Source of the DNA: Isurus oxyrinchus
Taxonomy: Eukaryota
Assembly (NCBI GenBank): GCA_026770705.1
Contig: JANJGN010000024.1
Location: 28,272,001-28,336,000 of the forward strand
Length of the DNA stretch: 64,000 nucleotides
Direction of reading: 5' to 3'
Shown: positions 1,671 to 58,364 of the stretch, piece by piece
Layout of the letters: each line of letters opens with the position of its first letter
Position numbering within the stretch: the stretch's first letter is position 1
Translations under genes and position numbers: made by a program
The notes under the pieces: generated by a model
What the model was told of the DNA's origin: nothing
Seen by the model: only the letters and a program-made list of their open reading frames with translations
Database searches by the model: none

Positions 1671-2394
1671 AAGACAGATTTCACTATTTCTGGAAGGCAA
1701 GGTAAAAAGCCATTAATTCAGTACAAGTAATACATTCTAAGAATTATTTTTCAATTTGTAAACCAAACCATAGGGCATCTCTACTCATTATTCTTCTGAA
1801 GTGTCTAAAAGCCAAGGCTGTGGAATGAGGAAACCTGGCCTTATGACAGTGACTACACAGGCTTCAAAGCCAACTTGCATGACAGCAAATAAAGATAAAA
1901 AGTAAAACCAACGAAGGCTGGTAATCTTCAATGAAGTATTTAAAATATTACAACCGCACAGGTCAGTTGCAATTGAATATTTAAGTGAAATAGATAGGCT
2001 AACAATCCTATTGCTAAATCCACTTCTGTTCGTTCCTTTTTCTCTTTATTTTAGAAGGCAGAGACATGTGGTCGTTCAGAATATTGGGCCGGATTTTCGA
2101 TGCGGGGCTGGGGACCCGACACCCAGATGGATTCAGGGTTCCAACCCCAGGCTCACGCTACGTAGCTGTTGTGACATTATTTTAAAATTTAAATGACATA
2201 ATTGGCCTGGAGGCAAACTCGGCATCAATTCAGAGGTACCAAGCTACTCCAGGAGGTGGGTGTTGCCTGCTTGGTGCCAACAGCAAAGGCAGTTGGCAGG
2301 AATGATGGGGCTGCCACTGCCTTGCCAATTAGGATAGGCAGCTCATTAGAAGGTCAAAAGCTGGAAAATGGCAGAAAGTGGCCATGAAAGCAAT

Positions 2395-4070
2395 TTTATT
2401 TTATTCATTCATGGGATGTGGGTGTCACTGGCTGGGCCAGCATTTATTGCCCATCCCTAGTTGCCCTTGAGAAGCTGGTGGTGCACTGCCTTCTTGAATC
2501 GCTGCAGTCCACGTGGTGTAGGTACACCCACAGTGCTGTTAGGAAGGGAATTCCAGGATTTTGACCCAGTGACAGTGAAGGAACGGCGATATATTTTCAA
2601 GTCAGGATAGTGAGTTACTTGGAGGGGAACCTCTAGGTGGTGGTGTTCCCATGTATCTGCTGCCCTTGTCCTTCTAGATGGTAGTGGTCATGGATTTGAA
2701 AGGTGCCAGCTAAGGAGCCTTGCTGCGTTCCTGCCGTGCAACCTGTAGATGGTACACACTGTCGCTACTGTGATTGGTGGTGGAGTGAGTGAGTGTTTGT
2801 GAATGGGGTGCCAATCAAGCAGGGCTGCTTTGTCCTGGATGATGTCAAGCTTCTTGAGTGTTGTTGGAGCTGCACTCATCCAGGCAAGTGGAGAGTATTC
2901 CATCACACTCCTGACTTGTGCTTGTAGATGTTGGACAGGCTTTAGGGAGTCAGGAGGTGAGTTAGTCGCCACAGGATTCCTAGCCTCTGACCTGCTCTTG
3001 TAGCCACAGTATTTATATGGCTCGTCCAGTTCAGTTCTGGTCAATGGTAACCCCTAGGATGTTGATAGTGGAGGATTCAATGATTGTAATGCCATTGAAT
3101 GTCTTGGGGTAATGGTTAGATTCTCTCTTGTTGCAGATGGTCATTGCCTGGCATTTCTATGGCGCAAATGTTACTTTTCACTTGTCATCCCAAACCTGGA
3201 TATTGTCCAGGTCTTGCTGCATTTGGACATGGACTGCTTCAGTACCTGAGGAGTCGCAAATAATGCTGAACATTGTGCAATCATCAGTGAACATCTCCAC
3301 TTCTGACTTTATAATGGAAAGAAGGTCATTAATGAAGCAGCTGAAGATGGCTGGGCTTAAGACACTATTCTGAGCAACTCCTGCAGTGATATCCTGGAGC
3401 TGAGATGCTTGACCACAACCACAACCATCTTCCTTTGTGCTAGGTACAACTCCAACCAGTGGATTGTTTGCCTCCTGATTCCCATGGACTCCAGTTTTGC
3501 TCGGGCTCCTTGACTCAGTCAAATGTGGCCTTGATGTCCAGGGCAGTCACTCTCACCTCACTCTCGAGTTCCACCCTTTTGTCCCTGTTTGAACCAAGGT
3601 TGTAATGAGGTCAGGAGCCGAGTGGCCCTGGCGGAACCCAAACTGAGCATCAGTGAGCAGGTCAAAAACAGAATTACCTGGAAAAACTCAGCTGGTCTGG
3701 CAGCATCGGCGGAGAAGAAAAGAGTTGACGTTTCGAGTCCTCATGACCCTTCGTCGAAGGGTCATGAGGACTCGAAACGTCAACTCTTTTCTTCTCCGCC
3801 ATTGCTGCCAGACCTGCTGAGTTTTTCCAGGTAATTCTGTTTTTGTTTTGGATTTCCAGCATCCGCAGTTTTTTTGTTTTTATATCAGTGAGCAGGTTAT
3901 TGCTGAGCAAGTGCCATTTAATAGCACTGTTGATGACCCCTTCCATTATTTTACTGATGATGGACGGCAGACTGATGGGGCAGGAATTGGCCAGGTTGGA
4001 TTTGTCCTACTTTTTGTGTACAGGACATACCTGGGCAATTTTCCACATTGCCAGGTAGATGCCAGTGCTG
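2395..4070 (-). mobile_element. Non-LTR retrotransposon family A (CR1-group RT), 5'-truncated
   Basis: Minus-strand RT fragments (GVAQNSVLSPAIFSCFINDL, MFTDD, QVRSVMEYSPLAWMSAAPTTLKKLD). 3' tail cccacatcccatgaatgaataa at about 2400. Confidence 0.9.
3663..3883. mobile_element. Palindromic Penelope-like terminal repeat insertion with 14-bp TSD, nested in LINE A
   Basis: Two inverted copies joined at about 3754. atcagtgagcaggt is duplicated at 3649-3662 and 3884-3897. Confidence 0.8.
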
Positions 4071-7699: not shown

Positions 7700-8535
7700 T
7701 CTTCTATTCTGTTGAATGGTCACAGACCCTGAAACGTTGAGCGGAACCGACCAGCTCCACCAATGGGCGGGAAGCTTGACGGGCTGTGGAGCTTAATTTG
7801 CGGTGAGGCCAAAAATCAGCTTCCCGATCACGGGGTCAACTTTAGCAATTATGCTCTTGGGACTTTAAAGGCAGGTCGAGCTTCCTGATGAACAACGTCG
7901 CGAAGCCCTTTTGCATGCATTAGCAAGTCATGCATGCTCATTAAAAGGCCGCCTGGCCAAATTAAGTTCCCCGCCAGCGAGAAATTCATGACTGCACACA
8001 GGTGCACCTGGTGAGGTAGACATCGTCCATGATGAGCGGTCATTTTCCGCTGCATTAGCCTCTTTGAGGATCGTCTGTAAATGCCAGCCTACGCTTGAGA
8101 CTGGGGCGGTGTGGTGCAAGTTGCCCAGAGGATGATCAAGGAAGGCTTAGCTGCAAAGGATGGAGCAGTGGCCGGGCAAAGGTGCAAGGGACAGTGCAGG
8201 ATGCCTGGGTGCCCTTTAAATGTGGCACCCAGTACTTCGACCCCATGAGGTAATGGCGGGGACAGTGACTTCCTGCCTGCTCCTGCCACGAGAATCGGAC
8301 AGCTCCTGACGGATGCATATGTAATGAGTTGAACAGCGCAAGGTCGCGCACAGTCAGCTTTCCTGCCCTCCCAGCGGAAACCACTCTCACTTCCGCCCCC
8401 TCCATTGAACTTAGACTCCAGAACGGAAGAATCCAGCCATTCACTCTGTTTCTCTCTCCACAGATGCTGCCTAACCTGCTCAGTATTTCCAGCATGTTCC
8501 GTTTTTATTTCAGATTTGCAGTATTCCGCTTTTCA
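7700..8535 (+). mobile_element. Older Penelope-like terminus (hammerhead-like motif) interrupted by a MITE at 7739-8438
   Basis: ctgttgaatggtcacagaccctgaaacgtt, then the insert, then attcactctgtttctctctccacagatgctgcc...tcagatttgcag. Confidence 0.7.
7739..8438. mobile_element. Harbinger-type MITE
   Basis: Right end gaagaatccagcc. GC-rich body. Flanks gtt/att. Confidence 0.5.
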
Positions 8536-11756: not shown

Positions 11757-12507
11757 ACGAAGTGGAATGTGAGGTTGGCTAAGATTGCAGAGGTTGGCTA
11801 GAGATAGGACATAAGGGATTTAAAGATGAGCGCTAAGATTTCACAGTTGATGTGGTGGGAGGCTGCAGGTAGTGAAAGCCAAAGAGAAAGATGGATCCTT
11901 TCCATGAACATAGAAGCTTACAGGTACCAGACCCCTCACCTGGTGTTCCAAACTCCAAAGGATCCGAAAACCAGCAACAATCGAATCTGGCAACACTCCT
12001 GTCCTGGGAACTACTGTACAATCCTCATCAGGCATTTCTGTCCGCTATATCCTTTATTAACAAGGGGGCTGTTTACAGGGTTCCACTGATGGCCTCAAAA
12101 GTGATTATTCTTCCCCCTCTTAGGTAGTTCTGTTATTGTTTATTTTTAAACTTAAAAGATTTATTTTACGTGAAGCATTGGTGATTCCGCTGTGCTGCGT
12201 ATCTGGGCCGCAGCTTGTTGAACCTGCTCTTTGGGTTCAGCCTGACTTATTTGATGTCGGGATTAACAGCATGGAAGAAGCTGGCCTGGTCTGCGCCTCA
12301 TCCCTTCCTTTCCCCGTCTCGACTGGGTCCAGCTCGGCAGACAAATAAGCCCGACTTTAAGTTTGAATTCATTATTATCCTATTTCCCCGGACCCCCTGC
12401 CCCCACCACCCCCTGCCACAGCACCCAAAATTCGGAAAATCCCCATATCAGGCACACATCTGTTCCCGAGCTTCTGGATATAGGGTCCGGTCTCAGGATT
12501 TTCATAG

Positions 12508-12645
12508 TTTTCTATGAACAGTTATATTCGACTCAAAATGTTAACTGTTTCTCTCTCCACAGATACTGCCAGACCTAATGAGTATTTCCAGCACTTTCTG
12601 TTTTTATTTCAGATTTCCAGCATCCGCAGTATTTTGCTTTTATTT
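12508..12645 (+). mobile_element. Older Penelope-like terminus with decayed hammerhead-like motif
   Basis: ctatgaacagttatattcgactcaaaatgttaactg followed by tctctctccacagatactgccagacc...tttccagcatccgcag. Confidence 0.7.
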
Positions 12646-13699: not shown

Positions 13700-14290
13700 G
13701 TGGCTACAAGAGCAGGTCAGAGGCTAGGAATCGTGCGAAGATGCCCCAAAGCCTGTCCACCATCTACAAGTCAGGAGTGTGGTGGAATACTCTCCACTTG
13801 CCTGGATGAGTGCAGCTCTAACAACACTGAAGAAGCCTGACACCATCCAGGACAAAGCAGCCCACTTGATTGGCACCACATCCACAAACATTCACTCCCT
13901 CCAACCCCGACGCACAGTAGCAGCAGTGTGTACCATCTACAAGATGCACTGCAGGAATTCACCAAGGCTCCTTCGACAGCACCTTCTAAACCCACGAACA
14001 CTACCACTTAGAAGGACAAGGGCAGCAGATACATGGGAACAGCACCACCTGGAGGTTCCCCTCCAAGTAACTCACTATCCTGACTTGGAAATATATTGCC
14101 GTTCCTTCACTGTCACTGGGTCAAACTCCTGGAATTCCCTTCCTAACAGCACTGTGGGTGTACCTACACCACATGGACTGCAGCAGTTCAAGAAGGCAGT
14201 TCACCGCCACCTTCTCAAGGGCAACTAGGGATGGGCAATAAATGCTGGCCCAGCCAGCGAAGCCCACATCCCATGAATGAATAAACAAAA
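13700..14290 (+). mobile_element. LINE A 3' end
   Basis: ORF 13779-14228 (EYSPLAWMSAA...SWNSLP...FKKAVHRHL). Tail catcccatgaatgaataaa. Confidence 0.9.
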
Positions 14291-14309
14291 AGAAAGGTAT
14301 TCTAGTACG

Positions 14310-18489: not shown

Positions 18490-19570
18490 CCTGGGGCAAC
18501 AAATTCAGTCCATGAACTCGGTCCTCCATCTTCACTCTTTTTTAATCCCTTTTTTAAAAAATGTATTTTTATTTTGTTTTTTTCATTTTTTAATGTTTTT
18601 TAATTTATTTATTTTTATTCATTGTTTTATCCCTTTTCTATCCTTTATCTCCAACCACCGCCCCTGTCCACATCGCCCCCAAAGGGCTATTTATCACTTG
18701 TTCTATGTTGTTCTTTCACAGAGTGCTGACCCTTGTCCTGCTGTTCACACATTCTGCTTTCTTATCTACATGCCACTATCTACACCTTCTTTATCCCTTA
18801 CCTCTACCATTAACACTCCCTTTGCCTTGTCTCCATGACATTTTTGTCGATGACTTTCCACCCTGCTTTACCCGTTTAACCCCTTCCCCCCATGCAGCAT
18901 AAACTCCATCACTTTTTTAATTCTCTTTGGCTTTGAAGAAGAGCAATACAGACTCAAAACATTGGCCAGGATTTTGCCCTCGACGGGCGGGCTGGGCGGG
19001 GGCAGGCGGGAGTGGTCAGGAAGCCAACAGCTGCCCGCGATCTGGGTCAGGCCGCGATTTCACACCGGTGGGGGCAATTAAGGCCCGCCCAGCGTGAAAC
19101 ACTTGCTGCAGCGCTTAGCCGCTGCCTGTGAAAGGAGGGCGAGTGGGGAGCTGCCTCAGGGAGATGAAGATTTCAAAAATAATTAAAAATAAAGAACTTT
19201 AAAAGAACAAAACATGTCCCCTCATCTGACCCTGTCACATGAGAAGGGACATGTTGTTATTAATAAAATGTTTACATTTTTATCTAATTTTTAATAGCTG
19301 TTGGAAACCTCATCCCGCCTGTGGATGAGGTTTCCTAAAAAATCCAAAGGGTTTGCCTGCCCAACTGTAAGGTTGGATGTGCAGCAACAAATTTAATTCA
19401 ATTATTACTTTAATAGCCTTAATAGGCCTACTAATTGTCGGCGGGTGTGCTGATGACTCCCGCGCTCTTTTTCTCTCTCCACAGTTGCCGTCAGACCTGC
19501 TGAGTTTTTCCAGCATTTTTCTGTTTTTATTTCAGATTTCCAGCATCCGCAGCATTTTGCTTTTACTTTT
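18490..19570 (+). mobile_element. Penelope-like 3' region and terminus interrupted by a MITE at 18964-19464
   Basis: T-rich/C-rich UTR, then tttgaagaagagcaatacagactcaaaacatt, then the MITE, then ctctttttctctctccacagttgccgtcagacctgctgag. Confidence 0.7.
18964..19464. mobile_element. Harbinger MITE, hairpin subfamily, right end deleted
   Basis: TIR ggccaggatttt. Hairpins at about 19212-19255 and 19303-19335. Confidence 0.8.
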
Positions 19571-23080: not shown

Positions 23081-24454
23081 ATTAGACAATCCCCTGAAAA
23101 ATAAGGAGAAATATGTTGACCTCCACATGAAATTCCTGAGAATTAAGTGTTTGGCACTGCAAGGAACAAATGATCTAATTAGCTTCATTATGTATGTTGC
23201 TGCATGCATTAGAACCCAATTGCATGTTTGCTTTTTACTCTTCAATTTCTGTCAGGTTTGGGAAACTTCAATTTTTCTGGACTAGTTGTTCTGTCGGTTG
23301 ATTTGTGACGATTTCAAAAAATGCCAATGTCCCAATACTAAAACTACTCCACAACAAGCTGCATTTATACAGCAGCTTTAACATCCCACTGTGCCAGAAC
23401 TTAGTTTGTAATGAGCAAGCTGCTGCTCAAATTTCAAATAGACCTTGGGGGAGAATTTTCCCCACGTCGGGAAGCAGGACCGTGCCGCCATTTTACGCGG
23501 GTGGGCCAATTAAAGCCTGCCCAGCGTGTTTGCCGAATCCCGGGGACGGTGGGAGTGGGCAGGCGGAGGCAGATCGGCACTCACCGCCGGGTCAAATAGC
23601 GACCCGGCGGCCTGTTTAAAGGCCAAGTTTCAGCCGCTCCAAGGCTGCTGGACGTGGCAAGAGGTTGGGGCCAAGGCACATCGAGGCTGGCCATGCAGGA
23701 GGGTAGGGCGGGTGGTCACTGTGCGCCCAGGTTTTCAGACAAGTGCCTTGCTGCCCTCCTCAAGGAGGTGGCAGCACAGCGGGAGGAGGAGGCAGCCCCA
23801 CCTAACCAAGTGTGCATGGGAGGAGGTAGCGGAGGTTGTGAGTTCCCACGATGTGGTGCGGCGCTCATGGACCCAATGCCACAAGAGCTTCAATGACCTG
23901 CTGCACACGGGAAGAGTGAGGAGCATGTTGGCATCGTTCACTTCACCCATCATGTAAGCTTCTCCCCCACTGGCACCCCCAATGTCTGGGTGGCCTGAGT
24001 GCAGTGAATCATTGACGGCATGTGTCCTTAGCTGGGCAGCCCACCAGATATTCCCTATGCGTTGGTCAACCTGAGAGGGTGGTGGTGAGATGGGTTCTGC
24101 ACCTGCAGCATGTAGTGGACAGACACCCACATGACTGTGGTGGGGGGCACCCTGGAGGATCTGCACCCAGGCGCACTGCTCGAACTCCAGGACGTGTTGA
24201 AGTCAGGGTGATGACATGGCGGGAGTGGATGTGCAAGGTGGCGTGGCACAGTTGGATCTGCTGCTCTCTGCGCTCCATGTCATTATGCCTCCTTGCAATG
24301 GCAGGTACAACTGTGTTGAAGGCAGCATGTGGGCATGGGAGGTGGGGGACACACTGGCATATTAGTGTGAGTGCTGGCCAGTAGCGGGGGGAGGATGCAC
24401 TGCACCCCTGCAATGGGCAGCTGGGGATTGACAGTACAAGTATCACTTATCAAT

Positions 24455-24691
24455 AATAAAAACAAAAAACTGCGGATGCTGGAAATCCAAAACAAAAACA
24501 GAATTACCTGGAAAAACTCAGCAGGTCTGGCAGCATCGGCAGAGAAGATAAGAGTTGATGTTTCGAGTCCTCATGACCCTTCGACAGAACTTCTGTCGAA
24601 GGGTCATGAGGACTCGAAACGTCAACTCTTATCTTCTCTGCCGATGCTGCCAGACCTGCTGAGGTTTTCCAGGTAATTCTGTTTTTGTTTT
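24455..24691. mobile_element. Palindromic Penelope-like terminal repeat insertion with 14-bp TSD, inside the Myb gene intron
   Basis: Inverted copies centred at about 24590. tatcacttatcaat is duplicated at 24441-24454 and 24692-24705. Confidence 0.85.
24589..24627 (+). ncRNA. Putative minimal type I hammerhead ribozyme (variant core)
   Basis: CTGTCGA-A-GGGTC-atgag-GACTC-GAAAC-GTC-aact. Helix I 5' arm is partly lost at the palindrome junction. Confidence 0.5.
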
Positions 24692-26356
24692 TATCACTTA
24701 TCAATGCTATTTTCTCATTTCCAGGAGAAAAATTTTCATCTGAATGCCCAGTGGCTGAGGACTGGCGGTGGGCCAGGCCAGATTTTGTTGCTTAGCTGTT
24801 TTGAGCAGGGGGCCCTGGACCTGAAGAGATGCCATGCGCCCAGGTCCACTGGAGATGGGGAGGCTGGGGTTCCACGGGCAGGTATGTATGGCCAGCACTC
24901 ACGTCTCCAGTAGTCTCCCAACATCCATAGAAGTGCTGATTGTTGAGTGAGTGACATAACCAACATGGCTTATCCATTGCATGTGGAATGATGAACACAT
25001 GATGATCTGGGGGACTGGCATGTATATTGGCATTGCCCACAGGCTAACTGATCGAATTTCCTTACTCTTCTATTCAGCATCATCAGCGCATGGCTGGGAG
25101 AAGGAGCAGCCCCTCTACACCTGAGGGCCATGAAGTTGCACCATCAGAAGCGTCACACCATCTCTGCCAGGCAGGTACCAGCGCAGATACTGGCACCTCA
25201 GTGGGCATCATATCTTTGGCTAGTGTCCTGGGTCACAGCGGTGAGGACGCTTCACAGTCGCTGGAGGAGCTGGTGGAGACAGAGATTGCCCATGGTGCCA
25301 GCAGTCAGTGAGGACTGCAGGGACCCAGGCACATGCTCAGTCTGTCGCTAATGATGAGCCTCTGGAGTCGTCGGCGACGCAGCCAACTGGTGAGATGCAG
25401 CCGGGTGCTCGGGACCATCTGGTGGAGATACATGAGGCTGTGCTTGGCTTGGTGTCAGCGGTGGAGGAGTCTACGTGGACCATCGCCAATGCATTGAGCA
25501 TCATGGCTGAGCGCCAAGCTTCCTCCATGGACAGAGTGGCGATTCTCACGGAGAGGCAGCTCCAGGGACAGGATCAGGGGTTCCTGGTGTTATGCTCAGA
25601 CCTGCAAACCCTCACAGGGGCATTAACCTCATGTGGTCAGTGCCCGTGTGGGTGGTGGTTTGGGCACCAGGTATCTCACCTCGGTGCCCATCCATTTACG
25701 GTGAGCAGGGAGGGCTAAATGGACCTCACATTAGCACAGCAGCTGCCTGTCGTCTCTGCGGGAGCCTCTCAGGGCGCTCCGGATGAGAGCGGAAGCTCCT
25801 CCGCGCATCTGCCAGTGACCGTGGAACCCAATGAGGCTGCGACAACTGGGGAGATGCCAGTTGTGGAACTCCCAGGTGGAGCCAGCACAGGCTCCACGGG
25901 CCAGAAGACATCCACCAAGGTCATCGAGGCCAACAGGACATCAGAGAGAGCAGGCCGTCTCAGATGCCAGTACCAGCGAGGGGGCACCGCAAAGACATAG
26001 CACCCACAAACGTAAAATGAAGACACCTTAGGCACACCCCGGGTTCATCGCTGGTGGTTTTTTGCTGGCCTGCACTATGAGTTCCTTCTGATTGTGTGGA
26101 AGGGCAACACCATTTTATTTCTGTTATCTCAAGAGACTTTTGTTACAGCATTAAGTTTATGTCATCTAAAATGGCTGGGGGCTCTCTTTTCTTGGGCAGG
26201 TGCATGGATTCCTGAGATTTGATGAACGATTTGTGTGTCATTTACATTTATTGACTAGGCCCATCGTCAATGCTCCTATCCAGACAGATTTTGCACTAAG
26301 ATCTCCAGGATGGAGGCTACAGCCCAGGCTTGTGTTGGAGATCCATATGTGCTGTG

Positions 26357-27574
26357 CTAGCTAAAGGTTCCTTGGATTAGAGCGTCCCGGGTGTCCCTGC
26401 CTCCCTGGAGTAGTCCCGGGTCAGCGTCTGCTCCCTCAGCATTCTCCTGTGCGTTTTCATCCTCAGACTCACTGATGGACTCAACGTGTTCAGCCGCAGC
26501 CACTCCATCTACATCTTCTTCGTCCACTGCATCCCCCCTTTGCAGCGCAAGATTGTGGAGAGCGCAGCATGCAACCACCATCAGCGACACACGATCGAGG
26601 GGGTACTGGAGTGCGTTCCTGGAATGGTCCAGGCATCGGAAGCGCATTTTGAGAAGACCGATGGCTCTCTCCACCACAGACATTGTGGAGCCATAGCTCC
26701 TATTGTACCGCTGCTCAGCTTCTGATATTGGATGGCGGAGAGGCATCATGAGCCACCTTCTGAGGGGATAGCCCTTGTCACACAGCTGCCATCCATCCAG
26801 CCGTGCTGGAGCACTGAAGATCCCCGGCACCTGGGAGTGTCTGAGGATGTAGGTGTCGTGGGAGCTGCCTGGGTAACTTGCACAGACTTGTAGAAACTGT
26901 ATCCTGTGGTCACACACTATCTGCATGTTCATGGAGTGGAAGCCCTTCCTGTTGACAAGACACCCAGCTTACCCACTGGTGCCTTGATGGCCACATGTGT
27001 ACAGACTATAGCACCCTGGATGTGGGGGAAGCCAGCAATCGCTGCGAAGCCTCTGGCTCGCTCTGTCTGGCTGGCCTCGTCCCAGTGGTAGTAGATGAAG
27101 GTCAATGCACACCTGAACAGAGCGTCTGTAACCTGCTTGACACAAGGGTGGATAGCTGATTGGGAGACACCACAAAGATCACCCACCAACCCTTGGAAAG
27201 AGCTGGAGACATAGAAGTTGAGGGCAGCTGTGACCTTTAGAGCCACTGGCATGGGGTTCCACCCACACAGTTGCTGAGATCCCTGGACCAATCATCTGAC
27301 AGATGCTGTTGACTGTCTTCTTTGACAGGTGGAGCCTCCTTTGGCATTGCACCTCAGACATATTGAGGTAAGTGTTTTGCCATCTGTATACCCTGGCAAC
27401 AGGATAACGCTGTCTTCTGCGGCCCATTCCGCCTTGGACTACCTCTTGGCCCTGCGCCTGTCCTCCCAAAGGTGGCTCCCCAGGAGGCTGAATGTGCACT
27501 CCTGGCCTCCTCCCCCTCCTAATCCTCCCTTTCTCCTCAGATGAGCTGCCTCCAGTGGAGAGATCGCCTCCCAT
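26357..27574 (-). pseudogene. Harbinger (HARBI1-like) DDE transposase, frameshifted
   Basis: PVALKVTAALNFY..SSFQ..GD..GVSQS, FPHIQGAIVCTHV (first catalytic D changed to V), YPGSSHD, CDKGYPL, RYNRS..T.SVVERAIGLLKMRFRCL, ACCALHN. Split across ORFs 27179-27628, 26929-27291 and 26357-26932. Confidence 0.92.
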
Positions 27575-28189
27575 TCCCAGGCTCAGGGAGGCTTCCTGAA
27601 ACCTACAGGCCCCAAAACAAATCCTCACTGAAAAGTGCTGACCTGAAGGTTATGAGTCCAGTCGAAGCAGCTTCTCTGCTTTTGCAACTTTTCCACCTCA
27701 CACAGGCAAGTTTCACTAACTTCTCAGCAGTGACTTTTAAATGTCTGGATTTGCGAACCCACCGAGCCCTCTTCTCCCGCCCGTGGGTGAGCTTCATGCA
27801 AATTTCTGATACCCGCCTGCCCGTTGCGCTTGTACGACGAGCCGAAGATCACACAGGCACCTTAAAATCCAGGTCAATTGGAGCTTCAAGGGGGCCTTAA
27901 GTGGCCTGTTAATTAATGGCAGTCGCACAACGGACATCATCGCGCGCCCATCCACCGAAATATCGCAATGGCACACGGTGACATTGGGACGTGTGACCGA
28001 CATCACCGCGCGTCACTTTACGCGTCAGCACGCGGATCCCGCCCTCCTGGTCAACAACAGAAAAATTCTGACCTTGAATTATTTAGAATGTATTAACCTC
28101 ACAGCTGAATTCTGGGAAAAGCAGTCACTACCGGCGCTGGAAACCTCAGGCCCTTTCTCCGAAATTTTAATCTACCTTTCAGACTTTTT

Positions 28190-30436: not shown

Positions 30437-30800
30437 GATAAAAACAAAAAACTGTGGATGCTGGAAATCCAAAACAAAAACAGAATTACCTGGAAAAACT
30501 CAGCAGGTCTGGCTGCACCGGCGGAGAAGAAAAGAGTTGACGTTTCGAGTCCTCATGACCCTTCGACAGAACTGATCTTTCTTTACAAGGGGAGGGAAAT
30601 ATAAGCTGGTTTAAGGTGGGGGGCGTAGAGAAGTGGAGGGGGGGGGGTGGTGTTAGGATAGGAGCAGATTATCAAAAGATGAACAAGGCAAAAAAAAAAA
30701 CTCTTTTCTTCTCCACCGATGCTGCCAGACCTGCTGAGTTTTTCCAGGTAATTCTGTTTTTGTTTTGGATTTCCAGCATCCGCAGTTTTTTCTTTTTATC
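30437..30800. mobile_element. Penelope-like element: inverted termini with about 125 bp of internal sequence
   Basis: Minus copy 30437-30573 and plus partial copy 30701-30800 of the young terminal repeat. Confidence 0.8.
30535..30573 (-). ncRNA. Putative minimal hammerhead ribozyme (variant core)
   Basis: agtt-CTGTCGA-A-GGGTC-atgag-GACTC-GAAAC-GTC-aact on the minus strand. Helices I and II are intact. Confidence 0.6.
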
Positions 30801-40849: not shown

Positions 40850-43800
40850 CAATGATGCTCTGGGGACCCGTGTTCAAATCCCACCACGGCAGATGGTGGA
40901 ATTTGAATTCAATAAAAAATCTGGAATTAAAAATCTAATGAAACCATTGTAGAAAAACCCACCTTTAGAGAAGGAAATCTACTGTACATATGACACAAGA
41001 TCCAAGCAATGTGGTTGACTCTTAAATGGCCGAGCAAACTCAATTATAACGAACCGTTACAAAGTCTACAATGGGTGAAACAAGATAGATCACTTGGCAT
41101 CGAGTTAGGCACCAGAAACAACAACTGCAAACTCAGCTCTAATTGGCCCTGAAAAGTCCTCCTAACTAGCTTATTGGGGCACAATTGGGAGAGCTGCCCC
41201 AATGGGGACAACAGCCTGACATAGTCATACTCATGGAATTGTACTTTACAGATAATGTCCCAGACATCACCATCATCATCCCTGGGAATGTCCTGTTCCA
41301 CTGGCAGGACAGACCCACAAAGGTAGTGATATAATGGTATACAGTTGGGAGGGAGTTGCCCTGGGAATCCTCAATATTGACTCCAGATCCCATGAAGTTT
41401 CATGGCATCAGGTCAAACATGGACAAGGAAACTTCCTGCTGATAACCAAGTACCATTCCCTGTTAGCTCGTGAGCCAGTACTCCTCTATGTTGAACATCA
41501 CTTGGAGGAAGCGCTGAGATTGGCAAGGGCGCAGAATGTATTCTGTGGGGGGGGGGGGGGCGAACTTCAATGTCCATCTCCAAATGTGACTGGGTACCAC
41601 CACTGACCGAGCTGGCCGAGTCCTAAAGGACATAGCTGCTGGACTGGGTCTGTGGCAGGTGGTGAGGGAAAAACATACCTGACCTCATCCTCAGCAACCT
41701 GCCTGCCGCAGACGCATCTGTTCATGACAGCATCGGTAGGAGTGACCACCGCACAGTTCTTGCGGAGACAAAGTCCCATCTTCACATTGAGGATACCCTT
41801 CATCATGTTTTGGCATTACCACTGTGCTAAACGGGATAGATTTCGAACAGATCTAGCAACTCAAGACTGGACATCCATAAAGCGCTGTGGGCCATCACAG
41901 CAGCAGAATTATACTCAACCACATGGCCCGGCATATTCCCCAACTCTAACATTGCCACTAAGTCAGGGGATCAACCCTGGTTCAATGAGGAATGCAGGAG
42001 GGATTGCCAGGAGCAGCACCAGGCATACCTAAAAATGAGGTGTCAATCTGGTGAAGCTATAACACAGAAGCCAAACAGTGTAAGCAGCAAGTGATAGACA
42101 GAGCTAAGCGATTTCACAACCAACAGATCAGATCTAAGCTCGGCAGTCCTGCCACATCCAGTTGTGAATGGTGTGGACAATCAAACAACTCATTGGAGGA
42201 GGAGGCTCCACAAATATCCCCATCCTCAATGATGGAGGAGCCCAGCACATCAGTGTAAAAGATAAGGCTGAAACATTTACTACAATCTTCAGCCAGAAGT
42301 GCCGAGTGGATGATCCATCTCGGCTTCCTCCGGAGGTCCCCTGCATCACAGATGCCAGTCTCCAGCCAATTCAATTCACTCCACATGATATCAAAATACG
42401 GTTGAAGGCAAAGGCTATGGGCCCTGACAATGTTCCAGCAATTGTACTGTAGCCTTGTACTCCATAACTGGCCATGCCCCTAGCCAAGTTGTTCCAATAT
42501 AACCACAACATTGTCATCTACCTGGCAAAGTAGAAAATTGTCCAGGTGTGTCCTGTACACAAAAGGCAGGACAAATCCAACCAACCAATTATCACCCCAT
42601 CAGTCTATTCTCCATCATCAGTAAACTGATAGAAGGGGTCATCAACAGTGCTATCAAGTGGCACTTGCTTAGCAATAACCTGCTTACTGACACTCAATTT
42701 GGGTTTTGCCAGGGCCACTCAGCTCCTGACCTCATTACAGCCTTAGTTCAAACATGCACAGGAAAGCTGAACTCCAGAGGTGAGGTGAGAGTTACTGCCC
42801 TTGACATCAAGGCAGCATTTGACCAAGTGTGGCATCAAGGAACCCAAGCAAAACTGGAGTCAATAGGAATCAGACGGAAAAAATCTCCTCTGGTTAGAGT
42901 CATGCCTAACACAAAGGAAGATGGTTGTGGTTGTGGGAGGTCAATCATCTCAGTTCCAGGACATCACTGCAGGAGCTCCTCTGGGTAGTATCCTAGGCCC
43001 AACCATCTTCAGCTGCTTCATTCAATGACCTTCCTCCATCATAAGATCAGAAGTGAGGATGTTTGCTGATTATTGCACAATGTTCACCACCATTCACAAT
43101 TCCTCAGATACTGAAGCAGTCCATTTCCATATGCAGCAAGACCTAGGCAACATCCATGTTTGGGCTGACAAGTAGCAAGCAACATTCATGCCACACAAAT
43201 GCCAGGCAATAATCATCTCCAATAAGAAAGAATTTAAACATTGACCCTTGACATTCAATGGCATTACCATCGTTGAATATCCCGCTCTCAACATCCTGGG
43301 GGTCACCGTTGACCAAAAACTGAGCTAGGCTAACTATACAAATACTGTGGGTACAAGAGCAGGTCAGAGGCTAGGAATCATGTGGCAAATAACTCAATTT
43401 CTGACTCCCCAAAGTCTGTCCACCATCTACAAGTCACAAGTCAAGAGAGTGATGGAATACTCCCTACCTACCTGGATGAGTGCAGCTCCAACAACACTCA
43501 AGAAGCTCAAAACCATTCAGGACAAAGCAGCCCACTTAATTGGCACCCCATCCACAAACATTCACTTGCTCCATTGCTGACGCACAGTGGGAGCAGTGTG
43601 TGCCATCTACAAAATGCACTGTAGGAATTCACCAAGGCTCCTTATACAGCACCTTTCAAACCCAAGACCACTACCATCTAGAAGGATGCAGCAGATGCAT
43701 GGGAAGACCACCATCTGGAAGTTCCCCTCAAAGCCACTCACCATCCTGACTTGGAAAGATATCATTTTTCCTTCACTGTTGGTCAGTCAAAATCCTGGAA

Positions 43801-43940
43801 CCCCCTCCGTCACAGCACTGTGGGTGTACTTACACCACATGGACTGCAGTGGTTCAAGGAGGCGGCTCACAATCACCTTCTCAAGTGTAATTAGGGATGG
43901 CCAATTAATGCTGGCCTCACCTTGAATGAATAAAAAAAAG
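40850..43940 (+). mobile_element. Near full-length LINE A (APE endonuclease + RT), frameshifted
   Basis: QPDIVILME, G.FNVH and SDH (APE). KAMGPDNVP, NYHPISL, QFGF, ALDIKAAFDQVWH, LGPTIF, MFAD (RT). Tail tgaatgaataaaaaaa. Confidence 0.9.
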
Positions 43941-57416: not shown

Positions 57417-57956
57417 ATAATGTCCGTGTGTCAACAAAAGTGGTGCAGTTTTGTGTGCCATATTAAAAGGATACCAATATGCTTATTTGACAGCCTATCA
57501 CAGCTCTGCAGCTGGTACTAAATAATATCACATGCAACACAAAAAAATATGAAAAGAATTTTAAAAAGCAACCAGTGTAAACAAAGTACACTTAAGTCCC
57601 ATTGTGAAAAGGGCAAGAAATAAGCATATCATGAATAGTAATGACCATTGATAAATCCCAACTGATAAATCAAACTGTTCTATGCTTAGAATTACTTCCA
57701 TGTCCCTGTTTCCTATACATCGAAATATATATAGACATTAACACTGAAAATAACTTAATGAATCACTTCTGGCTGAAGATCAATTTAAATTACAATGGTA
57801 TGATGACAAATTGGTCAGCTTATCAGTAGTACTGTTTCCTGCAATGTCCACTCCGTCATAACTAGCCCACAAGTTGTGAGAGAAGTAATTAGAACTGGAG
57901 CAAATGAAAACTGTGAGAACAATCAAATGGACCGACCCAAACTGAAGATATTATTA

Positions 57957-58095
57957 TAAAACAAAAAAACTGCGGATACTGGAAATCCAAAACAAAAACA
58001 GAATTACCTGGAAAAACTCAGCAGGTCTGGCAGCATCGGCAGAGAAGAAAAGAGTTGACGTTTCGAGTCCTCATGACCCTTCGACAGAACTTGCT
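57957..58095 (-). mobile_element. Solo Penelope-like terminal repeat with 10-bp TSD
   Basis: gatattatta at 57947-57956 and 58096-58105. Near-identical to 24455-24590. Confidence 0.8.
58053..58091 (-). ncRNA. Putative minimal hammerhead ribozyme (variant core)
   Basis: agtt-CTGTCGA-A-GGGTC-atgag-GACTC-GAAAC-GTC-aact, intact. Confidence 0.6.
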
Positions 58096-58364
58096 GATAT
58101 TATTACATCGTTCTGAAGTCTGATATGCCAATCTGAGAATGCAGAGATTATGAAGTAACAGTTGCTCAGTTTTTTTTTGTTTTTGATGGCAATCTGTCAA
58201 ATCTTTTGAGCAATGTTTCAACATTGGCTTGTTGAACATGACGCAATTAACATGAGTTGTCACAGGAATATCATTTTGGACGTTGAGAATGAATAGTAAA
58301 GGAAGAATATTCACACAGGCCCTTAGGTACTGACAACAAATGACCATACCAAAGGGCTTGCAAG

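What the first reader, a model, noticed from the sequence alone, without database searches (positions are those of the whole stretch)
58053..58091. Young repeat family carrying a hammerhead-ribozyme fold with a fixed non-canonical core (CUGUCGA)
Seen: the same 39-mer agtt-CTGTCGA-A-GGGTC-atgag-GACTC-GAAAC-GTC-aact occurs at 58053-58091(-) and 30535-30573(-), with near-identical copies at 24553-24591(-) and 24589-24627(+). It folds as helix I agtt/aact, helix II GGGTC/GACTC, a palindromic ACGT helix III and a GUC cleavage triplet. Established: Penelope-like elements carry minimal type I hammerheads (CUGANGA...GAAAC-GUH) that cleave as dimers through the palindromic helix III. Unusual: the conserved A6 is U in every copy with a complete core. 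Inference: either an active A6U core variant or a family that spread with a weakened ribozyme. Solo inserts start only a few nt upstream of the motif.
Basis: partly seen in the sequence, partly recalled or inferred. Interest (0 to 1): 0.75.

Follow-up and report, generated by a model that had tools for sequence, protein, structure and literature searches.

The report
Shark jumping-gene ribozyme with altered core
A very abundant short repeat, likely the end piece of a Penelope-type jumping gene of sharks, carries a hammerhead-ribozyme sequence with U in place of a nearly invariant core A, which likely weakens self-cutting, yet the family still made new insertions, so it offers a natural test of whether these elements need their ribozyme.

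Summary
Observation confirmed. The 39-mer is the 5' part of a ~139-nt repeat: 4 loci, 7 arms in the window. It fits the minimal type I hammerhead of Penelope-like elements (PLEs) at every core position except 6, which is U in 4 of 4 complete cores. PLE hallmarks were tested and met: optional 33-nt tail, head-to-head inverted pairs, 10-14-bp target duplications. No parent ORF was found. The 58053 copy is absent from the orthologous site of a relative ~2% diverged, so a U6 copy inserted recently. An exact translation of the element, with a Ser codon that fits U6, lies in a white-shark COMMD9 gene model. Genome-wide fixation of U6 could not be tallied. Cleavage is untested; published position-6 changes cut activity in Mg2+ strongly. 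Most copies keep an uncut motif. Best reading: a weakened ribozyme in a family copied from uncut RNA (0.55); rival: a low-rate active variant (0.3). Restoring A6 alone is predicted to misfold, which confounds the proposed control. The scan earlier noted a different PLE core variant (U3-A8) on other DNA. New variant of a known kind.

The parts
58053..58091 (-). Minimal type I hammerhead motif: helix I 4 bp, core with U at position 6 (58084), extra A, helix II 5 bp with one G-U, GAAA, palindromic ACGU, predicted cut between 58057 and 58056
   Evidence: consensus
57956..58095 (-). Solo insertion (~139 nt, hammerhead + tail), absent from the orthologous site of organism B
   Evidence: table 8, X8 record 25 joins 57946 to 58096
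57947..57956 (.). 10-bp target-site duplication, left copy (right copy 58096-58105)
   Evidence: only one copy at the empty site
57956..57988 (-). Optional 33-nt tail between the two 3' ends of the family
   Evidence: loose ends at 57956/57958 and 57989/57990 in X1 and X8; short ends at 24691 and 3663
58008..58089 (-). Predicted cryptic exon (82 nt) spanning the hammerhead, AG acceptor at 58091-58090, GT donor at 58007-58006
   Evidence: two database proteins leave the element's frame at this donor; inference
30437..30690 (-). Arm with full tail, intact U6 hammerhead (30535-30573) and ~115 nt of pyrimidine-rich upstream repeat sequence
30699..30800 (+). Inverted partner arm that starts within 0-2 nt of the predicted cut site, behind an A-run; full tail; no target duplication found
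24455..24591 (-). Arm with U6 core, palindrome broken by CpG decay, full tail
24591..24691 (+). Inverted partner arm, U6 core, short 3' end; shares two variants with its partner; locus flanked by a 14-bp duplication (24441-24454, 24692-24705)
3663..3883 (.).
12505..12643 (+). Older sister-family copy (78% alike) with a decayed hammerhead that keeps A6-U7-G8-A9 and a GUU triplet
19467..19565 (+). Older sister-family copy starting about 2 nt after the cut site
8443..8529 (+). Older sister-family copy starting about 1 nt after the cut site

Best explanation
The motif is a minimal hammerhead sequence with U at core position 6 inside a ~139-nt high-copy repeat that is likely the terminal repeat (pLTR) end of a shark Penelope-like retrotransposon; the change likely lowers self-cleavage strongly, and the family likely spread anyway because its copies are likely reverse-transcribed from uncut RNA. 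Steps: (1) shown: U6 in all 4 complete cores, two 3' ends 33 nt apart, target duplications, an empty site in a relative; (2) inferred from the anole PLE work: the element's RT/GIY-YIG protein nicks AT-rich DNA and starts cDNA at one of two tail sites, runs through the uncut hammerhead and mostly stops at its 5' edge; (3) inferred: the cDNA end sometimes folds back in the core region and copies itself, which gives the head-to-head pairs; (4) inferred: A6U arose in a master copy and was carried along because cleavage is not needed for insertion.
For: Natural A6C is slow in Mg2+ (kobs <0.1/min, PMC3088659; 0.004-0.05/min at 1-3 mM, and 3.55e-6/min at 0.3 mM for an engineered A6C, PMC7151607); all CUGA-turn mutants except the C-G swap were low in a saturation scan (PMC9901934). 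Hammerhead-dead mutants did not affect insertion of the anole PLE in vitro (PMC11167929); Naiad PLEs without canonical hammerheads are abundant (PMC8557442). 6 of 7 arms in the window extend upstream past the cut site. In one search summed depth does not step down across the cut site (X1 17.5M at 58056, 18.6M at 58059), the cut site is not among the 6 loose ends shown per DNA run, and 10 of 12 junction rows shown lie at 58081-58093, none at the cut site. The sister family keeps A6 in its 1 readable copy and 2 of its 3 copies start at the cut site, against 1 of 7 arms here (Fisher p 0.18).
Against: All other core and stem positions are intact, and the differences from the sister copy fall mostly at free positions (N7, loop II, A-U to G-U in helix II, N17), which fits continued selection. 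One arm (30699) starts at the predicted cut site; chance of at least 1 in 7 is 0.15. U6 is predicted to remove a 5-bp core-trapping helix that A6 would form here. Active PLE hammerheads also leave mostly uncut copies and no RNA ends at the site, so uncut copies do not separate weak from active. No measured value for A6U was found. Tables are cut (710 loose ends, 56 junction rows not shown) and contig depth is no copy count. The parent ORF was not found.
Confidence: 0.55

Rival explanations
1. U6 is a functional low-rate variant: it would cleave as a dimer through the ACGU palindrome, perhaps helped by the element's protein or Mn2+, and the loss of catalytic rate would be offset by better folding, giving the slow cut that a PLE needs so that its 3' copy survives until reverse transcription.
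For: With C7, C17 and A1.1, A6 is predicted to form a perfect 5-bp trap (MFE -11.3 vs -7.3 kcal/mol; hammerhead-compatible share 7e-5 vs 3e-2; gap of the active dimer to the best dimer 16.1 vs 8.1 kcal/mol). A6C keeps good activity in Mn2+. The anole PLE hammerhead is protein-assisted. Arm 30699 starts at the cut site and shares no private variant with its partner, as expected of two primings on one 5'-cut RNA. Direct tandem joints of the unit exist (5 contigs in X1, 3 in X8), which could supply dimers.
Against: The Acropora Neptune hammerhead has A6 with the same C7, C17 and A1.1 (1 of 56 rows), so the trap is tolerated in nature. A7 with A6 is predicted to fold better than U6. The 30699 start lies in an A-run and may be microhomology. 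Energy models do not describe the catalytic core.
Confidence: 0.3
2. The ~139-nt unit is an independent non-autonomous element (SINE- or retrozyme-like) transcribed from about the motif's 5' edge and mobilised in trans by an A6 PLE, so U6 was never under selection for cleavage.
For: 5 of 7 arms and 10 of 12 junction rows start at the motif's 5' edge; tandem units exist; PLE-derived retrozymes are reported in a chondrichthyan (bioRxiv 2026.07.22.740005); no parent ORF found.
Against: One U6 copy carries ~115 nt of upstream pyrimidine-rich sequence, and loose ends at 58091 in both species share a related upstream consensus, so U6 sits in longer units. Arms of one fold-back pair are not independent.
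Confidence: 0.12
3. The hammerhead likeness is chance.
For: No Rfam hit; fold not more stable than shuffles.
Against: Descriptor chance 0.033 per 64 kb; it matches the extra nucleotide after A9, G10.1-C11.1 and the palindrome of the published consensus; it sits in a repeat with PLE tail and inverted pairs.
Confidence: 0.03

Closest known systems
Minimal type I hammerheads of metazoan PLE terminal repeats (Cervera & De la Pena 2014, PMC4209133)
   Same: Layout, extra nucleotide after A9, G10.1-C11.1, GAAA-C-G-U-H with palindromic 15.2/16.2, short helix I, mass occurrence as solo motifs and opposite-strand pairs.
   Different: U at position 6; all 56 of 56 rows in their Fig. S3 have A6 (their descriptor required it); their core variant is U3-A8; no cartilaginous fish is in that list.
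PAc (Poseidon of Anolis carolinensis; Frangieh et al. 2024, PMC11167929)
   Same: Two reverse-transcription start sites that define an optional 30-40-nt tail; AT-rich targets; hammerhead upstream of the tail; copies from uncut RNA.
   Different: The paper names only C3 and G8 of the PAc core in the text I read; its ORF starts at stem II, whereas the loop-II ATG here closes after 18 codons. No ORF was found for this family.
Bcep176 A6C hammerhead (PMC3088659, PMC7151607)
   Same: Natural change at core position 6.
   Different: C rather than U; one phage sequence, tested, Mn2+-preferring. This one is untested, in a dimer-type minimal motif, at very high copy number.
Non-LTR retrozymes (bioRxiv 10.64898/2026.07.22.740005)
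   Same: PLE-related, non-coding, hammerhead-bearing repeats; monomers scattered.
   Different: Retrozymes are defined by tandem units; no direct tandem lies in the window, and only a few tandem joints were seen in the runs.

Membership tests
Minimal type I hammerhead (PLE type) | Core C3 U4 G5 A6 N7 G8 A9 | tested here: not met
   U at position 6 in 4 of 4 complete cores; the other six positions match
Minimal type I hammerhead (PLE type) | G12 A13 A14 A15.1, U16.1, H17 | tested here: met
   GAAA-C-G-U-C
Minimal type I hammerhead (PLE type) | Helix II with G10.1-C11.1 and an extra nucleotide after A9; helix I of 3-5 bp | tested here: met
   5-bp helix II, 4-bp helix I; not the minimum-energy monomer fold
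Minimal type I hammerhead (PLE type) | Palindromic 15.1-16.1 for dimer helix III | tested here: met
   ACGU in 3 of 4 complete copies; CpG-decayed in 24553(-)
Minimal type I hammerhead (PLE type) | Covariation in helices I and II among variants | tested here: inconclusive
   One one-sided change (A-U vs G-U) against a single decayed sister copy; the variant table is blind over 58061-58091
Minimal type I hammerhead (PLE type) | Self-cleavage after H17 | not testable with these tools
   No assay; only contigs, no raw RNA reads
Rfam hammerhead families | Score above threshold | tested here: not met
   No hammerhead match at E<=10 in the window or in 58030-58110
Penelope-like element (EN+) | Optional 30-40-bp tail (two 3' ends) | tested here: met
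   Loose ends 33 nt apart: X1 702 vs 627, X8 628 vs 642; short ends in 2 of 7 arms
Penelope-like element (EN+) | Head-to-head inverted terminal repeats, target duplications | tested here: met
   3 of 4 loci inverted; duplications of 14, 14 and 10 bp at 3 of 4 loci; compare PMC3846280
Penelope-like element (EN+) | ORF with telomerase-like RT and GIY-YIG endonuclease | tested here: inconclusive
   No GIY-YIG among 131 of 131 stop-free frames of 84 aa or more; no whole genome held; collections hold no relative
Non-LTR retrozyme | Tandem direct units, each with a complete hammerhead | tested here: inconclusive
   None in the window; tandem joints 58093 to 57958 in 5 X1 and 3 X8 contigs

The most novel reading that the evidence does not exclude
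U6 is an active hammerhead core, selected because it removes a self-trapping helix: a natural A6U ribozyme present at very high copy number in lamniform sharks, invisible to CUGANGA descriptors, and sometimes spliced into host mRNAs as a cryptic exon that spans the whole ribozyme.
Probability: 0.25. Interest if true: 0.68.

Novelty: new variant of a known kind. Interest (0 to 1): 0.45.

Why it matters
The role of PLE hammerheads is stated to be unclear (PMC8557442). One genome here seems to hold a U6 family and an older A6 sister family, so the share of copies that begin at the cut site can be compared between them as a fossil read-out of cleavage in the germ line. If U6 is dead, it shows in nature that a vertebrate PLE can spread and still insert without its ribozyme. 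If it is alive, the hammerhead core consensus and all CUGANGA-based genome searches miss a class. The element also seems to supply splice sites to host genes.

Tried and rejected
No whole genome is held, so copies could not be collected. Pattern scans for the motif in metagenome, viral and prokaryote-genome contigs found 0 matches; a tail pattern gave 129 loci, none aligning over more than 32 nt: chance. Genome-wide position-6 tally: no difference is listed at 58084, but the CpGs at 58064, 58082 and 57973 are not listed either while 58037 and 58059 show 9-13% decay, so the table is blind near the element's edges and I did not count it as support. The two runs guessed to be RNA hold the repeat with far fewer CpG-decayed alleles (e.g. 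58037: 9.9, 10.9% in DNA vs 0.3, 1.3%), but contigs drop rare variants and the RNA label is a guess: not used. No RNA holder is on record. Rfam miRNA hits at 24491-24689 and 3707-3801 are the inverted pairs. The two RVT_1 hits are not tied to this repeat; 42503-42985 looks like a LINE RT by recalled motifs. P0003 is a chance repeat protein. A protein search at near length found nothing; cluster members of P0002 could not be looked up. COMMD9 exons are not in the window. The clustering statistic for 5' starts (p about 8e-4) is overstated because paired arms are not independent. Lunse et al. 2017 (recalled: many PLE-linked hammerhead variants that cleave as dimers) is not held and may contain U6 examples.

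Full report
Observation. The 39-mer is exact at 58053-58091(-) and 30535-30573(-), and 1 nt off at 24553-24591(-) and 24589-24627(+). The change in 24553(-) breaks the ACGT palindrome, and the junction cuts helix I of 24589(+), so 2 of 4 copies hold the whole fold. Position 6 is U in 4 of 4. A minimal-hammerhead descriptor with position 6 free gives 3 hits, all this family; 60 Markov sequences of the same size give a mean of 0.033. Rfam finds no hammerhead at E<=10, and the monomer's best fold is not the hammerhead (z 0.06).

Anatomy. The motif is the 5' part of a ~139-nt repeat with 7 arms at 4 loci, 95-98% alike, plus 3 older copies at 78-80%. Three loci are head-to-head pairs (3663-3883, 24455-24691, 30437-30800); one is a solo (57956-58095). 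Target duplications of 14, 14 and 10 bp flank 3 of 4 loci. Contigs of four public runs were laid on 57780-58290: 75,584 records from organism A and 52,412 from organism B, with summed depth over the repeat 1e5- to 1e6-fold that of the flanks (no copy count). The 3' ends fall at two places 33 nt apart (X1: 411+291 at 57956/57958 and 353+274 at 57989/57990; X8: 386+242 and 377+265). This is the optional tail that PMC11167929 ties to two reverse-transcription start sites (parts 1-2 of 4 read) and that PMC8557442 and PMC3846280 describe with inverted repeats as typical of PLEs (passages). In organism B one contig runs from 57946 straight to 58096, lacking 149 nt (element plus one duplication), with 6 other letters and 1 gap in 362 flank bases. 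A U6 copy therefore inserted after, or is polymorphic across, the split of two close species. CpG sites are 9-13% decayed family-wide, so the main burst is older.

Host and parent. A search with a 60-residue frame across the motif found 1 protein among 58 candidates, named by its source as COMMD9 isoform X2 of Carcharodon carcharias; it carries the element's 28-residue translation exactly, with Ser at the codon that spans core positions 6-8, which fits U6 and not A6. A second protein (P0004, lipocalin domain) has a 5'-shortened copy and leaves the frame at the same CAG|GT. The family thus occurs in a lamniform shark; that the window is from a related shark is inferred. No parent ORF was found: no GIY-YIG among 131 frames of 84 aa or more, no genome held, no relative in three collections. 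PLE membership rests on structure, not on the ORF.

Is U6 fixed? It is in 4 of 4 window cores, in the protein model, and in 2 junction rows that show the core letters (one per species; my reading of table 5c, 12 rows shown, 56 not). The variant table lists nothing at 58084, but it also misses three edge CpGs, so it is blind there. The locus at 3753 is centred on position 6 and reads U on one strand, A on the other. The one sister copy with a readable core (12505-12547) keeps A6-U7-G8-A9. All 56 of 56 hammerheads in Fig. S3 of PMC4209133 have A6, by descriptor, and none is from a cartilaginous fish (main text parts 1-2 of 4 and supplement file 2 parts 1-2 of 3 read; file 1 not searchable).

Does it cut? 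Not testable here. Against strong activity: natural A6C is below 0.1/min (PMC3088659, section read), 0.004-0.05/min at 1-3 mM Mg2+ though about 0.3/min in Mn2+ (PMC7151607, parts 1-2 of 4), and CUGA-turn mutants were low in a saturation scan (PMC9901934, passages; no per-mutant value seen). Six of 7 arms extend past the cut site; depth does not step down there (17.5M at 58056, 18.6M at 58059); 10 of 12 junction rows shown lie at 58081-58093 and none at the cut site. But an active PLE hammerhead also left no RNA ends at its site and was dispensable for insertion in vitro, so this does not prove weakness. For activity: the rest of the core is intact; arm 30699 starts within 0-2 nt of the cut site (chance 0.15 for at least 1 of 7); and U6 is predicted to remove a trap. 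With C7, C17 and A1.1, A6 would pair positions 4-8 with 15.2-1.1 in five perfect pairs (-11.3 vs -7.3 kcal/mol; hammerhead-compatible share 7e-5 vs 3e-2). That idea is weakened by the Acropora Neptune hammerhead, which has this A6 arrangement. Its practical result is that restoring A6 alone is a poor control. In the A6 sister family 2 of 3 copies start 1-2 nt after the cut site against 1 of 7 here (Fisher p 0.18): a lead only.

Mechanism. Most likely (0.55) the element's protein primes cDNA at one of two tail sites on uncut RNA, passes the motif and mostly ends at its 5' edge; fold-back of the cDNA would give the inverted pairs (the two arms at 24455-24691 share two variants); A6U weakened the ribozyme without stopping spread. 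Rivals: a slow but functional dimer or protein-assisted variant (0.3); an independent non-autonomous unit (0.12); chance (0.03).

Novelty. PLE hammerheads, their U3-A8 variant and a phage A6C variant are in print. Searches for A6U, for U6 core strings with 'hammerhead', for core variants with Penelope, and for PLE hammerheads or PLEs in sharks (listings only) showed no report of a natural U6 family. Lunse et al. 2017 (recalled, not held) could contain one. I also saw part 1 of 5 and passages of bioRxiv 2026.07.22.740005 (supplements closed), passages of PMC12192606 and PMC6155905, and two sections of PMC11014351 (nothing relevant). An earlier scan note (e1-7786987) concerns a U3-A8 variant in another genome and did not change my reading. 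Verdict: real, a new variant of a known kind, interest 0.45.

Noticed in passing
window 58008-58089 (-); proteins P0002, P0004: The frame through the hammerhead is open up to a CAG|GT donor. A white-shark COMMD9 isoform model carries the 28-residue translation exactly, and a lipocalin-domain protein carries a 5'-shortened version; both leave the element at this donor: predicted exonisation.
   Followed up: partly
window 58081-58093 (table 5c) and arms at 3753, 24591, 58093: 5' ends pile up at the hammerhead's 5' edge rather than at the cut site; whether this is a transcript start, an RT stop or a fold-back site is unexplained. Two junction contigs (one per species) read as a TTC/GAA snap-back over the core and both show U6 (my reading of the table).
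   Followed up: partly
window 58084-58086 (-): A6U also turns a UGA into UGU in frame with the ATG in loop II; that frame closes 18 codons after the ATG.
   Followed up: no
window 8443-8529, 19467-19565: 2 of 3 older sister copies begin 1-2 nt after the predicted cut site, a possible fossil of cleavage by an A6 hammerhead.
   Followed up: partly
window 26357-27649 (-), 25245-25718 (+): Harbinger-type DDE transposase remnant (PF13359, E 7e-32) with an oppositely oriented ORF nearby in a GC-rich block.
   Followed up: no
window 2394-3990, 13728-14291, 42503-43916: LINE remnants with RVT_1 hits, 80-90% alike; the 3663-3883 insertion lies inside one of them.
   Followed up: no
runs X18 and X19: Runs guessed to be RNA show about 3- to 90-fold fewer CpG-decayed alleles of the repeat than DNA runs; may reflect transcription of few source copies or contig simplification.
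   Followed up: partly
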